From NCBI GenBank assembly GCA_018826075.1, contig JAHKAJ010000035.1, positions 15,069-79,068 on the forward strand: a DNA stretch of 64,000 bases. Reading direction: 5' to 3'. This DNA comes from Candidatus Omnitrophota bacterium (GTDB lineage: Bacteria > Omnitrophota > Gorgyraeia > Duberdicusellales > 4484-171). The translations under genes were made by a program, and so were the position numbers. Positions 40,340 to 43,265 of this stretch are shown piece after piece. The notes below the pieces were generated by a model, which was given only the letters and a program-made list of their open reading frames with translations, searched no databases and was not told the DNA's origin. Position 1 is the stretch's first letter; each line of letters opens with the position of its first letter.

Positions 40340-40368
40340 TCCACAAACTCTGCCATTCCTGCTATAAT
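40340..40368 (+). promoter_or_regulatory. extended -10 promoter module, copy B (TCCACA, 17 nt, TGcTATAAT)
   Basis: 29 of 38 nt are identical to copy A, including ACTCCACAAA and GCCATTCCTG. Confidence 0.5.
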
Positions 40369-40376
40369 ACCTGTCT

Positions 40377-40439
40377 ATGTCTAAAATCTACATCCGAACA
40401 CTCGGCTGTCAGGTAGTAGATTGGAGGAGGCAATTATGA
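40377..40439 (+). pseudogene. remnant of a methylthiotransferase (MiaB/RimO family) 5' end: MSKIYIRTLGCQ then unrelated sequence
   Basis: 30 nt (40383-40412) match the start of the intact miaB (42162-42191) with 3 mismatches. Homology ends right after the GCQ codons. Confidence 0.45.
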
Positions 40440-41200
40440 AGCAATGGTATGAGTCATTATTTGAGAATTATGCGAAAAAATATGACCAGGAGTGTTTTGT
40501 CCAGGGAACGCTTGGCGAATGCGATTTTATTGAACAGGAAATAAATCACGATAAATCCTTAAAGATCATCGATATCGGCTGCGGCACCGGCCGGCATTCT
40601 ATTGAATTGGCTAAAAGAGGCTATGAGGTTACAGGGATAGATTTATCGGAATCCCAACTGGCCTGGGCAAAAGAGAAAGCAAAACAAAACAATTTTAACA
40701 TTGATTTTCGCAAACACGACGCCAGAAACCTCCCCTTTAAAGCCGAATTTGACCTGGCGATAATGCTTTGCGAAGGCGGTTTTTCTTTAATGGAAACCGA
40801 TGAGATGAATTTTGAAATATTAAAGAACGCGACAAAGGCGTTAAAAGATAAGGGTAAGTTTATATTCACGACATTGAACGGGTTATTTCCGCTTTTTCAT
40901 TCGGTCAAAGAATTTTATGAGTCCGCGGCCAAAGAAGGTAATTCAGCGTGTAAAAATTGTTCTTTCGATCTGATGACCTTCCGGGACCACAACACCGTCG
41001 TGTTCGAGGACGATGCCGGAACTAAAAAGGAATTAACCTGTAACCAGCGTTACTATGCGCCAAGTGAACTGACATGGCTTTTAAAGACGCTGGGGTATAA
41101 AAAAATCGATATTTTCGGCGCCAAACTCGGGGCTTTTTCAAGAAACGATAAACTGACGACTGAAGATTTTGAAATGCTGGTTATTGCGGAAAAATTATGA
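40436..41200 (+). CDS. class I SAM-dependent methyltransferase
   Basis: Motif I IIDIGCGTGRHS. GGAGGAGG RBS. Start at 40436. Confidence 0.75.
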   Translation: MKQWYESLFENYAKKYDQECFVQGTLGECDFIEQEINHDKSLKIIDIGCGTGRHSIELAKRGYEVTGIDLSESQLAWAKEKAKQNNFNIDFRKHDARNLPFKAEFDLAIMLCEGGFSLMETDEMNFEILKNATKALKDKGKFIFTTLNGLFPLFHSVKEFYESAAKEGNSACKNCSFDLMTFRDHNTVVFEDDAGTKKELTCNQRYYAPSELTWLLKTLGYKKIDIFGAKLGAFSRNDKLTTEDFEMLVIAEKL

Positions 41201-41280
41201 AAATTTTTATTAAGACGTATGGCTGCCAGATGGAAACGTCTCTACATACCGATTTTACATTTATTGGGAGAGGCGTATAG
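41197..41280 (+). pseudogene. second methylthiotransferase N-terminal remnant (MKIFIKTYGCQME...), AT-rich
   Basis: The ATG overlaps the methyltransferase stop. A KI(F/Y)I(K/R)T(Y/F)GCQM block is then lost after about 14 codons, with a stop at 41278-41280. Confidence 0.35.
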
Positions 41281-41388
41281 CCATAGATAACTGGTTATAA
41301 AATAGAGGGTTACAAAAAGTATCCTTGACAGAACCGAACGTAAGCGAAAAATTATCTTTTTGCTTTTTAATAAAATATTTAAGGAAAA

Positions 41389-42141
41389 ATGGATTTTTAC
41401 AGTATTTTCATTGTATGCATCGTTTCCTTTATAGCTAGTATCGTAGGTGTTTCTATAGGGGGAACATCGCTTATTACGATTCCTGTTCTTATCTGGCTTG
41501 GCATGATACCGAATAAAGCTGTGGCAACTAATATGTTTGCATTGATTTTTCTAAGTATAAGCGGAACAATAGGGTTTAGGAAACAAAGCAAGGTTGCACA
41601 TCATAAGCTTATATTTTTATTTGTGATCATAACCATTGCCGGTTCATTTATAGGCGCAAATATAGTCGCAGGTCTTAATGCCGATATATTAAGAAGAGTA
41701 ATAGCGATTGTTATTTGTTTGATAGCAGGATCCTTTATTTTAAAAAAAGATTTAGGCATACAGGAGAAAAAACAGCGACTAACGGTTATAAAATTAATAG
41801 TCGGTACTTTGTTGGTTTTTATTTTGGGTATCTATGGAGGTTTTTTTAGTGGAGGGTATGTTACCCTTTTAAGTTACGTTTTTATATTAATTTTCGGTTT
41901 TAATTTTCTTCAAACTGCATTTATCACAAAAGTATTTAACACATTCTCTTCTTTAGTTGCTTGTATTTTATTTTACCATTACGAATTAATCGATTTTTCT
42001 ATTGGTATTCCATTGGCTATATCAATGTTTTTTGGTGCGCTTTATGGTTCTAAAATGGCTATTTTAAAAGGGAATAAGTGGATTAGAAATTTGTTTATTA
42101 TATTTGCTGTTGGTTTAGCTACCAAATTAATATTTTTTTGA
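41389..42141 (+). CDS. TauE/SafE-family exporter (second copy, markedly AT-rich)
   Basis: Eight-TM protein. Roughly 30% GC by eye against about 45-50% in the flanking genes. Confidence 0.65.
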   Translation: MDFYSIFIVCIVSFIASIVGVSIGGTSLITIPVLIWLGMIPNKAVATNMFALIFLSISGTIGFRKQSKVAHHKLIFLFVIITIAGSFIGANIVAGLNADILRRVIAIVICLIAGSFILKKDLGIQEKKQRLTVIKLIVGTLLVFILGIYGGFFSGGYVTLLSYVFILIFGFNFLQTAFITKVFNTFSSLVACILFYHYELIDFSIGIPLAISMFFGALYGSKMAILKGNKWIRNLFIIFAVGLATKLIFF

Positions 42142-42152
42142 AGAGGAGAAAT

Positions 42153-43265
42153 ATGCCAAAAAAAATCTACATCCGCACCTTCGGCTGTCAGATGAACGTT
42201 CGCGATTCAGAAGCACTGTTGGGGTTGTTTTTAGAGAGGGGTTATCAGGCAGCCAAAGACGAAAGCCAGGCTGATATTATTTTGGTCAATACCTGTTCGG
42301 TCAGGGCGCATGCTGAAAACCGGGCCCTTTCTTATTTGGGCAGCTTAAAAAAATTCACTGAACGGCGCAGGACCCGGGGAGCTAAACGCAAAGTCATCGG
42401 GCTTATCGGCTGTATGGCTAAAAATCTTGGTGAAGAAGTTTATCAGAGAATGTCTCATGTTGATTTGATCTGCGGCCCGGCCAGTCTGGCTAAGATTCCA
42501 GTTTATTGTGATAAGATCAAAAAAGACAACATCCGAATAATCGATTTAGATGATGACTTGCGTGATGAGGAGTTCTACCGTTCGAGTTTTCGCCTTCAGC
42601 CGGATCATGCTCAAGTAGTGATTTCGACCGGTTGTTCAAACCATTGTTCTTATTGCGTGGTTCCTTTTGTTCGGGGAGAATTGCGCCTTAGGAGGCCAGA
42701 AGATGTTATAGTGGAGGTTAAGCGGAATATTGATCTGGGGATAAAGAAAATTACCCTGCTTGGGCAAAACGTCAACGATTATCCCAATTTTATTGATTTA
42801 TTATCTAAAGTCGAGAAAATAGCAGGAATTGAGGAGTTAAATTTTATAACCTCTCAGCCGCGGAATGTGCCAGAAGGGTTGTTTGAATTTATGGCAAGGT
42901 CGGGAAAAATCTCAAAACACCTGCATTTGCCGTTTCAGTCCGGTTCAAACCGGATTCTAAAGAAGATGAACCGCGGCTATACCCGCCAGAATTACTTGCA
43001 ATTGGTGGATAGTTATAAGAAAATAGTAAAAGGAACTTTAAGTACTGATGTTATTGTTGGTTTTCCTACTGAGGCTGATAAGGATTTTTTAGCCACCAAA
43101 GATATCCTGGAAAAGGTTCGGTTTAGAAAAGCTTATATTTTTAAATATTCGCCGCGGCCGCGGGCTAAAAGCAGCAAGATGGTTGACGATGTGTCCGATG
43201 AGCTAAAGGTAAAACGGCATAAGATATTACTGGATTTACAAAAGAAGATCTCTTTAAACAAATGA
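42153..43265 (+). CDS. miaB: MiaB-family tRNA methylthiotransferase lacking the C-terminal TRAM domain
   Basis: MTTase N-terminal domain ([16 protein letters not shown]) and radical SAM [8 protein letters not shown]. Only 370 aa, with no TRAM domain. The ATG at 42153 follows a GAGGAG RBS. Confidence 0.8.
   Translation: [370 protein letters not shown]

What the first reader, a model, noticed from the sequence alone, without database searches (positions are those of the whole stretch)
40340..43265. Rearranged miaB locus: two decayed methylthiotransferase 5' ends flank an inserted methyltransferase, followed by an AT-rich TauE gene and a TRAM-less miaB
Promoter module B (40340-40368) is followed by a 20-codon ORF, MSKIYIRTLGCQ.... 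Its nucleotides 40383-40412 match the 5' end of the intact miaB (42162-42191) at 27 of 30 positions, and homology stops exactly after the GCQ codons. A SAM methyltransferase gene then begins with its own RBS.

Immediately at the methyltransferase stop (ATGA overlap at 41197) there is a second, AT-rich MTTase-like start, MKIFIKTYGCQME.... It decays into a stop after 27 codons. Then come an AT-rich intergenic region with its own promoter, a very AT-rich TauE/SafE gene, and finally the complete miaB ([15 protein letters not shown]...). That miaB is only 370 aa and lacks the C-terminal TRAM tRNA-binding domain.

The simplest reading is that foreign DNA carrying a methyltransferase and TauE was inserted into the first roughly 12 codons of an ancestral miaB, and the gene start was duplicated. 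The alternative is a cassette that specifically targets the conserved 5' end of MTTase genes.
Basis: seen in the sequence. Interest (0 to 1): 0.55.

Follow-up and report, generated by a model that had tools for sequence, protein, structure and literature searches.

The report
Phage integration scars at miaB start
The two short "miaB-start" fragments are most likely leftover attachment-site scars from mobile elements that repeatedly inserted into the first codons of the tRNA-modification gene miaB, each time supplying a new gene start and leaving one cargo gene behind.

Summary
Stub1 (40377-40439) matches the miaB start at 27/30 nt. Stub2 (41197-41280) overlaps the methyltransferase (MT) stop in an ATGA. 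The second TauE gene is the strongest compositional outlier in the window. MiaB has no TRAM domain.

The interpretation needs revising. The missing TRAM is a trait of the whole Omnitrophota clade, not local damage. MT directly coupled to miaB through ATGA is a widespread arrangement. Stub2 is not a locally decayed copy. It is the 5' end of a conserved ~160-nt element found in many genomes, always in gene orientation, in front of single cargo genes upstream of miaB.

In relatives the same core sequence (…ACCTTCGGNTG…) lies at the 3' end of a large serine recombinase (LSR) gene. That LSR is followed by intact miaB in L176, by the same 160-nt tail in the phage-like IMG/VR contig L178, or by a related tail plus MT in L137. 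These look like attR and attP.

The window therefore most likely carries attL-type scars of two successive integrations. The integrase is now gone, and MT and TauE remain as cargo. Serine-integrase phages that target the 5' end of rimO, a paralogous methylthiotransferase gene, are already published. This is a new member of a known kind.

The parts
40340..40368 (+). Promoter-like site (TCCACA-N17-TATAAT with TG), 8 nt before the stub1 ATG. I infer it is the pre-insertion miaB promoter, now driving stub1 and MT.
   Evidence: 10/12 match; unique in the window. Function is inferred.
40377..40439 (+). Stub1: a 20-codon ORF. Its codons 3-12 (40383-40412) copy the miaB start. Its stop overlaps the MT start codon (ATGA). 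I read it as an attL-type scar with no element tail.
   Evidence: 27/30; E=0.0083.
40413..40435 (+). Short MT leader with a GGAGGAGG ribosome-binding site. It resembles the last ~28 nt before MT in L133 and L144.
   Evidence: compared by eye. This is weak evidence.
40436..41200 (+). Class I SAM-dependent methyltransferase (MT, 254 aa), substrate unknown. It is a highly conserved, horizontally mobile gene, often the first gene behind a miaB stub or directly coupled to miaB.
   Evidence: (83-89% aa identity across phyla).
41197..41232 (+). Core of stub2: a miaB-like start (ATGAAAATTTTTATTAAGACGTATGGCTGCCAGATG) overlapping the MT stop. This is the start that MT normally shares with miaB.
   Evidence: E=0.0014; core HMM 41199-41232, E=5e-7.
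41233..41351 (+). A-type tail. Conserved blocks are TTACA.ACCGATTTTACA, a -35-like TTTACA (41254-41259), a -10-like TATAGC (41276-41281) and GAACCGAACGTAAGCGAAAAA (41331-41351). I read it as the P' arm and left end of an LSR-type element.
   Evidence: 13 copies aligned; no RNA structure; same tail directly after an LSR gene in viral contig L178.
41325..41352 (+). Second promoter-like site (TTGACA-N16-AAAAAT) just upstream of TauE2.
41389..42141 (+). TauE2: a TauE/SafE (TSUP) membrane transporter. It is AT-rich cargo and the unit closest to miaB.
   Evidence: GC3 z=-3.68; homologues at most 66% identical, in other contexts.
42142..42194 (+). Renewed miaB start: RBS AGAGGAG, ATG at 42153, core AAAATCTACATCCGCACCTTCGGCTGTCAGATG. 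I read it as an attR-type junction.
42153..43265 (+). miaB, 370 aa, with UPF0004 and radical-SAM domains. It is intact and TRAM-less, as in the whole clade.

Best explanation
The first ~14 codons of miaB (…K-I/V-Y/F-I-R/K-T-F/Y-G-C-Q-M; core …ACCTTCGGNTG…) serve as a chromosomal attachment site for integrative, phage-like elements of Omnitrophota. At least some of these elements encode a large serine recombinase (LSR).

On integration, the element's right arm supplies a new ribosome-binding site, ATG and first codons, so miaB stays intact (attR). The displaced original start stays upstream as a short stub fused to the element's left end (attL). The new start must still encode the conserved MiaB N-terminus, so the site is effectively regenerated. 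Further elements can then insert, and the newest lies closest to miaB.

The window carries two such units whose integrase and other genes are absent.
- Unit 1: native promoter, stub1, MT.
- Unit 2: stub2 (the start that came coupled to MT), the A-type tail with its own promoter-like boxes, and the AT-rich TauE2.
- Then comes the current miaB start.

**Shown:** the repeats, the conserved tail family, the arrays, and the LSR/att-like configurations in relatives.

**Inferred:** that an LSR made the junctions in this genome; the order of events; and whether the units are decayed larger elements, mini-cassettes mobilised in trans, or were imported ready-made by homologous recombination between the flanking MT and miaB.
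For: **1. The stubs are significant and specific.** There are 0 stubs in 1.04 Mb around 80 unrelated miaB genes. There are 31 stubs in 25 of 82 MT loci, 29 of them in gene orientation.

**2. The stubs share derived characters.** They carry TGA or TGG in place of the Cys codon, and CCG in place of CAG. They also share conserved non-miaB tails across genomes with different downstream genes. This is expected for element-derived P' arms, not for independent local decay.

**3. Relatives show att-like configurations**.
- L176: LSR gene, core, intact miaB. This looks like attR.
- L137: LSR, core, C-type tail, MT. This looks like attP.
- L126: non-LSR flank, the same core, the same tail, MT. This looks like attL.
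- L178: LSR, core, A-type tail (nhmmer E=3e-21). L178 is a 17-kb IMG/VR contig that also encodes a small terminase and a DnaD-like replication protein.

**4. An unbiased miaB locus shows the same array.** L175, from a complete genome, reads gene, A element, gene, A element, gene, miaB.

**5. The order of units fits.** TauE2, the unit nearest miaB, is the strongest compositional outlier.

**6. There are published precedents.**
- A Variovorax prophage with a serine recombinase sits at rimO (PMC9658991).

**7. An unrelated integrase also sits at a miaB stub.** In high-GC viral contigs, a tyrosine integrase lies next to a 27-codon miaB stub.
Against: - There is no LSR gene and no LSR remnant anywhere in the 64-kb window.
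- The LSR link rests on four contigs from relatives, not on this genome.
- Stub1 has no element tail. Its junction lies directly after CAG and could be illegitimate recombination or a later deletion.
- The units are very small (0.8-1.0 kb, one gene each). The cargo stop codon lies 1-60 nt from the next stub. That is tidier than random decay of a ~17-kb phage-like element would predict.
- Canonical LSRs do not recombine attP with attR. Repeated insertion therefore needs the renewed start to behave like attB, which I have not tested.
- I could not show that contig L178 is circular. Its LSR/tail junction could be a tandem junction rather than a free attP.
Confidence: 0.62

Rival explanations
1. 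No site-specific recombinase acted in this lineage. DNA from related genomes that already carried stub-cargo units was incorporated by ordinary homologous recombination (or homology-facilitated illegitimate recombination). The arms were the highly conserved MT gene or a 30-45-nt miaB-start homology on the left, and miaB on the right. The stubs are by-products that are passed on.
For: - MT alleles are mosaic. Some loci reach 97.8% nt identity with the window in nt 345-570, against at most 83.8% in the 5' third.
- The AT-rich tract begins right at the MT stop and ends at the miaB start, as expected for a swap between two conserved arms.
- The window has no integrase.
- Stub1 has no tail.
Against: - This does not explain how the first duplication of the gene start arose.
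- It does not explain why unrelated cargo genes share the same ~125-nt tail with one common right boundary.
- It does not explain why that tail sits directly behind LSR genes.
- It is compatible with the main explanation as the route of import, rather than a true alternative.
Confidence: 0.25
2. The stubs are functional small elements kept for regulation. They could be upstream ORFs or leader peptides, or a cis-regulatory leader, that couple cargo expression to miaB-like translation signals. On this reading they are not scars.
For: - Both stub ORFs are translationally coupled to neighbouring genes through ATGA overlaps.
- The A tail carries conserved -35/-10-like boxes and a conserved block about 40 nt before the start codons.
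- The region folds somewhat better than shuffled sequence, z=-2.97.
Against: - In other copies the Cys codon is TGA, TGG or TGC, and reading frames are broken, so there is no coding constraint.
- RNAalifold finds no consensus structure in 13 copies.
- Rfam gives no hit.
- A promoter role for the tail fits the scar model equally well.
Confidence: 0.08
3. The arrangement is an assembly chimera that joins an AT-rich foreign contig to the miaB locus.
For: GC content drops abruptly at 41.2-42.15 kb.
Against: The same sequence occurs in three further assemblies from different samples: 100%, 100% and 99.77% identity over up to 4.3 kb.
Confidence: 0.02

Closest known systems
Burkholderia phage JC1 (Bcep22-like), and related prophages, integrating into the 5' end of rimO by a serine recombinase (PMC9144972). 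A Variovorax prophage also sits at rimO (PMC9658991).
   Same: The target is the 5' end of a methylthiotransferase-family gene. The enzyme is a large serine integrase. The integrase gene abuts or overlaps the target gene start, as in L176. attP and attB share a short core.
   Different: The target here is miaB, not rimO, and the host phylum is Omnitrophota. The gene start is replaced so that miaB stays intact, whereas the JC1 authors discuss loss of function. The window holds only integrase-less single-gene remnants in tandem.
dusA-specific integrases and their genomic islands or prophages (PMC4482086).
   Same: Integration is into the 5' end of a tRNA-modification gene. The element supplies a replacement 5' end, and a remnant 5' end is left behind.
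   Different: Those integrases are tyrosine recombinases, the islands are large, and no arrays of single-gene units have been described.
Tandem accretion of integrative elements and cis-mobilizable elements (CIMEs) at a single att site (reviewed in PMC5704250).
   Same: Integrase-less units flanked by att-type repeats lie in tandem at one chromosomal site, next to a conserved gene.
   Different: CIMEs are typically several kb and derive from ICEs or IMEs that use tyrosine or serine integrases at 3' ends of genes. Here the units are ~1 kb, sit at a 5' end, and carry a promoter-bearing conserved left end.
Integron gene-cassette arrays.
   Same: Single-ORF units all face the same way. Each is bounded by a repeated recombination-site-like sequence next to a fixed platform. 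Cargo is diverse: OXA-like, Fic, nucleotidyltransferase, hydrolases and methyltransferases.
   Different: There is no IntI tyrosine integrase and no attC hairpin; no conserved secondary structure was found. The repeat precedes each ORF and carries promoter-like boxes. The platform is the start of an essential-type gene.
Sequential displacement arrays of T6SS effector/immunity genes in Vibrio cholerae (PMC5361080), and orphan Rhs/CDI modules (the latter from my own knowledge).
   Same: New modules arrive next to a conserved gene. Older modules are pushed aside and keep a stub of the conserved gene.
   Different: Those stubs are 3' fragments, generated by homologous or illegitimate recombination with no integrase involved.

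Membership tests
Integrated element bounded by attL/attR of a large serine recombinase | Direct repeats of the core sequence flank the inserted DNA | tested here: met
   Three copies of the miaB-start core lie at 40383-40412, 41199-41232 and 42162-42194.
Integrated element bounded by attL/attR of a large serine recombinase | An integrase gene lies inside the element, next to one att site | tested here: not met
   There is no LSR or LSR remnant in the 64-kb window. The feature is met only in relatives L176, L137 and L178.
Integrated element bounded by attL/attR of a large serine recombinase | An attP form (P-core-P') exists in the free element, with arms that match attL and attR | tested here: inconclusive
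   L178 and L137 show LSR, core, then a tail that matches the window's stub2 tail and L126 respectively. I could not establish circularity or free state of those contigs.
Integrated element bounded by attL/attR of a large serine recombinase | The integrase catalyses recombination at these sites | not testable with these tools
   This needs in vivo or in vitro recombination assays.
5'-end-replacing genomic islands (dusA type) | The target gene stays intact through an element-supplied 5' end, and a remnant of the old 5' end lies at the far side | tested here: met
   miaB is intact with its own RBS and ATG. Remnant starts lie at 40377 and 41197.
Integron cassette array | attC sites with a conserved imperfect-hairpin structure, plus an IntI integrase and attI | tested here: not met
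   RNAalifold finds no consensus pairs in 13 aligned repeats. The only integrases I found next to these repeats are an LSR family. A miaB-start stub without the A tail, in unrelated high-GC viral contigs, lies next to a tyrosine phage integrase. I did not search for intI explicitly.
Local pseudogene remnants of a duplicated miaB | Each fragment is most similar to the resident miaB and decays independently | tested here: not met
   Stub1 fits (27/30). Stub2 does not: it is 19/30 to the resident miaB, but matches the conserved element family at E=1e-43 to 1e-21. Homology of its tail to miaB codons 15-58 is not significant, z=1.76.
Canonical bacterial MiaB | UPF0004 N-domain, radical-SAM core and a C-terminal TRAM domain | tested here: not met
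   UPF0004 and Radical_SAM are present and TRAM is absent. The same holds for the 120 closest homologues.
Structured cis-regulatory RNA (riboswitch or leader) | Conserved secondary structure with covariation, or a match to a described family | tested here: not met
   No Rfam match and no consensus structure.

The most novel reading that the evidence does not exclude
The stub-tail-gene units are not debris. They are a working cassette system. Each unit is a ~1-kb single-gene module: a P' tail with a promoter, one ORF, and a P arm that encodes a MiaB start. An LSR-type integrase supplied in trans would excise and insert these modules. Each insertion regenerates the miaB start as the docking site. 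The result would be a serine-recombinase analogue of an integron, built on the 5' end of a housekeeping gene. It would spread a highly conserved methyltransferase and other cargo across Omnitrophota and neighbouring phyla.
Probability: 0.2. Interest if true: 0.8.

Novelty: new member of a known kind. Interest (0 to 1): 0.5.

Why it matters
- **miaB start as an integration hotspot.** In the largely uncultured phylum Omnitrophota, the start of miaB emerges as a recurrent integration hotspot. The finding gives concrete attB, attP, attL and attR candidates for a new large serine integrase family. Such enzymes are sought as genome-engineering tools.
- **Why such short ORFs recur.** It explains why short 'gene-start' ORFs and AT-rich single genes pile up upstream of a conserved tRNA-modification operon.
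- **Broader targeting.** Together with the rimO and dusA precedents, it suggests that the conserved 5' ends of tRNA- and ribosome-modification genes are preferred landing pads for temperate elements.
- **Open questions.** The tidy single-gene units, and a 253-aa methyltransferase that is 80-90% identical across phyla, are worth a dedicated survey.

Tried and rejected
1. **Structured RNA or riboswitch in 41190-41392.** Rfam gave nothing. RNAalifold on 13 copies predicted no pairs. I rejected this.
2. **The A tail as decayed miaB codons 15-58.** Local resemblances (…GAAGGAG.GGTAYGA…, …CGTAAG…) looked promising. A profile-profile global alignment against column shuffles gave only z=1.76. I treat this as unproven.
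3. **An element hidden in the centre of the MT gene.** Synonymous-site conservation there is only mildly raised, 0.69-0.76 against 0.56-0.66. The better explanation is mosaic recombination between alleles.
4. **GIY-YIG homing endonuclease as the driver.** A small GIY-YIG gene lies directly upstream of MT in about 8 of 82 loci. None is in the window, and I found no mechanistic link.
5. **Genome-contig scan with MiaB.** It returned generic miaB loci from many phyla. These served only as a negative control.
6. **TauE2 homologues.** They sit in other genomic contexts and give no clue to a donor.
7. **Viral-contig scans.** A scan with the single LSR sequence found nothing. A two-sequence alignment did find hits. 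MT is almost absent from predicted viral contigs. Motif scans added only chance partial matches.
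Full report
**What is in the window**

The region lies in a one-strand gene run of a Candidatus Omnitrophota genome. The MiaB protein is identical to one annotated in Omnitrophica MAGs.

The gene order is as follows:
- Rrf2 regulator (39056-39457)
- TauE1 (39471-40319)
- promoter-like site (40340-40368)
- stub1 (40377-40439)
- class I SAM methyltransferase, MT (40436-41200)
- stub2 (41197-41280)
- AT-rich spacer
- TauE2 (41389-42141)
- miaB (42153-43265)
- TPR/SPOR gene
- miaA
- hflX

- The 27/30 match is reported by the repeat finder.
- Both stubs overlap their neighbours in ATGA.
- Against an HMM of MiaB N-termini they are the two best six-frame hits after miaB itself: E=0.0014 and 0.0083, with the next hit at 3.3.
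- TauE2 has the lowest GC3 of the 64 genes in the window, 0.251, z=-3.7. MT and miaB are compositionally ordinary.
- The same arrangement is 100% identical in two other assemblies and 99.77% identical in a third, so it is not a chimera.

**What is not special to this locus**

The 370-aa MiaB ends exactly where the TRAM domain of Bacteroides uniformis MiaB begins. The same is true of its relatives. All 120 best homologues, nearly all unnamed or Omnitrophota, carry only UPF0004 and Radical_SAM.

The downstream order is conserved in relatives: miaB, TPR/SPOR, miaA, hflX, S30AE, hrcA, grpE, dnaK. The missing TRAM is therefore a clade trait, not part of the rearrangement. What varies is everything upstream of miaB.

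**MT and miaB are a widespread pair**

MT homologues are unusually conserved. They are 83-89% identical in amino acids across Omnitrophota, Phycisphaerae, Verrucomicrobiota and others. MiaB's best non-self hit is only 71%.

I examined 82 metagenomic MT loci.
- An intact miaB follows MT within 3-107 nt in nine loci, often with the same stop/start overlap. A tenth locus has it at 244 nt.
- In eight more loci miaB lies 0.8-2.8 kb downstream with other genes in between.
- In many loci the MT stop is followed by the same ATGA junction but then by a broken miaB start.

Stub2 is therefore the start that MT normally shares with miaB. MT was not inserted between two halves of one event. MT alleles are also mosaic: up to 97.8% nt identity to the window in the middle of the gene, against at most 83.8% in the 5' third.

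**Stub2 belongs to a conserved element family**

Stub-like sequences near MT genes share derived features that real miaB starts lack. They carry TGA or TGG instead of the Cys codon, and CCG or CGN instead of CAG. They also carry conserved tails that are not miaB-like.

An nhmmer profile built from six copies finds full-length (~160-nt) copies in many loci. All are in gene orientation and each precedes a different gene. The window copy is 41198-41394.

The blocks shared across 13 aligned copies are these:
- the miaB-like 36 nt
- TTACA.ACCGATTTTACA
- a -35-like TTTACA, a 16-nt spacer and a -10-like TAYRAT
- GAACCGWACGTAAGTGAAAA

I found no consensus secondary structure and no Rfam match. My idea that the tail is decayed miaB codons 15-58 is not statistically supported, z=1.76.

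The stubs are specific to this setting. A DNA core HMM finds 31 stubs in 25 of 82 MT loci, 29 of them on the gene strand. It finds none in 1.04 Mb around 80 miaB genes from other phyla. Successive stubs are a median 1.45 kb apart. Eleven of 19 intervals hold one ORF and seven hold two.

Cargo genes are diverse:
- an OXA-like protein
- Fic
- DUF6788 plus a nucleotidyltransferase
- α/β-hydrolases
- a PLC-like protein
- several different methyltransferases

**The link to integrases**

I looked up three further miaB relatives without regard to MT.
- L175, from a complete genome, has the array gene, A element, gene, A element, gene, miaB.
- L177 has small accessory genes upstream of miaB.
- L176 has a 555-aa large serine recombinase (Resolvase, Recombinase and Zn_ribbon_recom domains). 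Its 3' end overlaps the miaB start.

A search of all fetched DNA with that protein found a 72%-identical LSR in L137. There the LSR 3' end is followed by the same core (…CGTACCTTCGGATG). After the core comes not miaB but a 'C-type' tail and the MT gene. In L126 the same core, tail and MT follow a non-LSR flank.

A 17-kb IMG/VR contig, L178, encodes a 73%-identical LSR, a small terminase and a DnaD-like replication protein. Its LSR is followed by the core and then an A-type tail, at E=3e-21 against the family profile.

Aligned on the core, these sequences behave as follows:
- attR: P arm, core, miaB (L176)
- attP or a tandem junction: P arm, core, P' tail (L178, L137)
- attL: host flank, core, P' tail (L126, and the window's stub2)

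The LSR is about 30% identical to hundreds of temperate-phage serine integrases.

**Mechanism proposed**

The conserved miaB start is the attB. Integration leaves the old start as a stub fused to the element's left end. The element provides a new start, so miaB remains functional.

That new start must still encode the conserved K-V-F-I-K-T-F-G-C-Q-M-N motif. It therefore resembles the old one, and the site can be used again. Arrays then grow with the newest unit nearest miaB. This fits TauE2 being the least ameliorated gene.

In the window the promoter at 40340-40368 and stub1 would be the pre-insertion miaB promoter and start, now coupled to MT. Stub2 would be the MT-linked start, interrupted by the A-tail/TauE2 unit.

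These steps are inferred, not shown:
- The window has no integrase.
- Stub1 has no tail.
- The units are tidier than random decay would give.

Two routes remain open. The units may have been imported ready-made by homologous recombination between MT and miaB. Or they may be mini-cassettes mobilised in trans.

**Comparison with what is known**

Serine-integrase phages that integrate into the 5' end of rimO, the paralogous MTTase gene, are published. For Burkholderia phage JC1 the integrase gene overlaps rimO in related prophages (PMC9144972). A Variovorax prophage at rimO has also been described (PMC9658991).

[quoted passage not shown] Tandem accretion and integrase-less CIMEs are known for ICEs and IMEs (PMC5704250; the review appeared in that search and I did not read its text).

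I found no paper that combines miaB with attB and integrase in this sense. The finding is a new member of a known kind: a new target gene, a new phylum and a new LSR family.

The cassette-like regularity of the arrays and the cross-phylum MT gene go beyond the precedents. They define the more novel reading that remains possible.

**Verdict**

- Interest is moderate (0.5).

Noticed in passing
window 42153-43265, and P0001-P0120: The TRAM-less MiaB is a clade-wide trait. All 120 closest homologues (347-523 aa, Omnitrophota where named) have only UPF0004 and Radical_SAM. The gene is typically followed, with an overlapping stop/start, by a TPR/SPOR protein. How tRNA is bound without TRAM is an open question.
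   Followed up: partly
window 40436-41200; loci L089-L172: The 253-aa class I methyltransferase is 75-91% identical in amino acids across Omnitrophota, Phycisphaerae, Verrucomicrobiota and a CPR bin. Its alleles are mosaic. It sits in unrelated contexts. In about seven loci (e.g. L093, L095, L096, L099, L111, L116, L117) it lies just downstream of a tRNA gene 3' end, behind a conserved ~90-nt leader. Its substrate is unknown; the best PDB match is the uncharacterised 1wzn.
   Followed up: partly
L114, L130, L139, L141, L145, L150, L157 (directly upstream of MT); L119/L131 (downstream); L001 1945-2250; L089 855-1190; protein P0022: A small YhbQ-like GIY-YIG nuclease gene (~95 aa) recurs next to MT or in the variable region upstream of miaB. 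In one homologue (P0022, 523 aa) a GIY-YIG domain is fused to MiaB. None is present in the window.
   Followed up: partly
L267 and L268, about 4000-4885 (IMG/VR contigs 3300037420_000321 and 3300037467_000326): In high-GC viral contigs a 27-codon miaB start ([28 protein letters not shown]) lies immediately upstream of a tyrosine integrase (PF00589). The miaB 5' end therefore seems to be targeted by an unrelated integrase family in another phylum.
   Followed up: partly
L175 2389-6001 (CP070684.1, complete Omnitrophota genome): The cargo genes of this array upstream of miaB are three different class I methyltransferases: Methyltransf_23, a weak Methyltransf_24-like, and an uncalled MTase-like ORF. 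This hints that methyltransferases are over-represented as cargo at this site.
   Followed up: no
window 39056-40319; L174 2723-4753: An Rrf2-family regulator lies next to a TauE/TSUP transporter both in the window (Rrf2, TauE1) and in another Omnitrophica genome (Rrf2, DUF2490, TauE). This may be a conserved regulator-transporter pair. The window thus has two divergent TauE genes 1 kb apart.
   Followed up: no
L005 5902-6000; L003 and L004 contig starts: In relatives the assembly breaks (contig ends, or a run of N in a 'complete' genome) fall exactly at or just upstream of the miaB start. This is what strain-level variation at an insertion hotspot would produce.
   Followed up: no
window 24998-25609: The second strongest compositional outlier in the window: GC 0.328, GC3 0.284, z=-3.0. 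I did not examine it.
   Followed up: no
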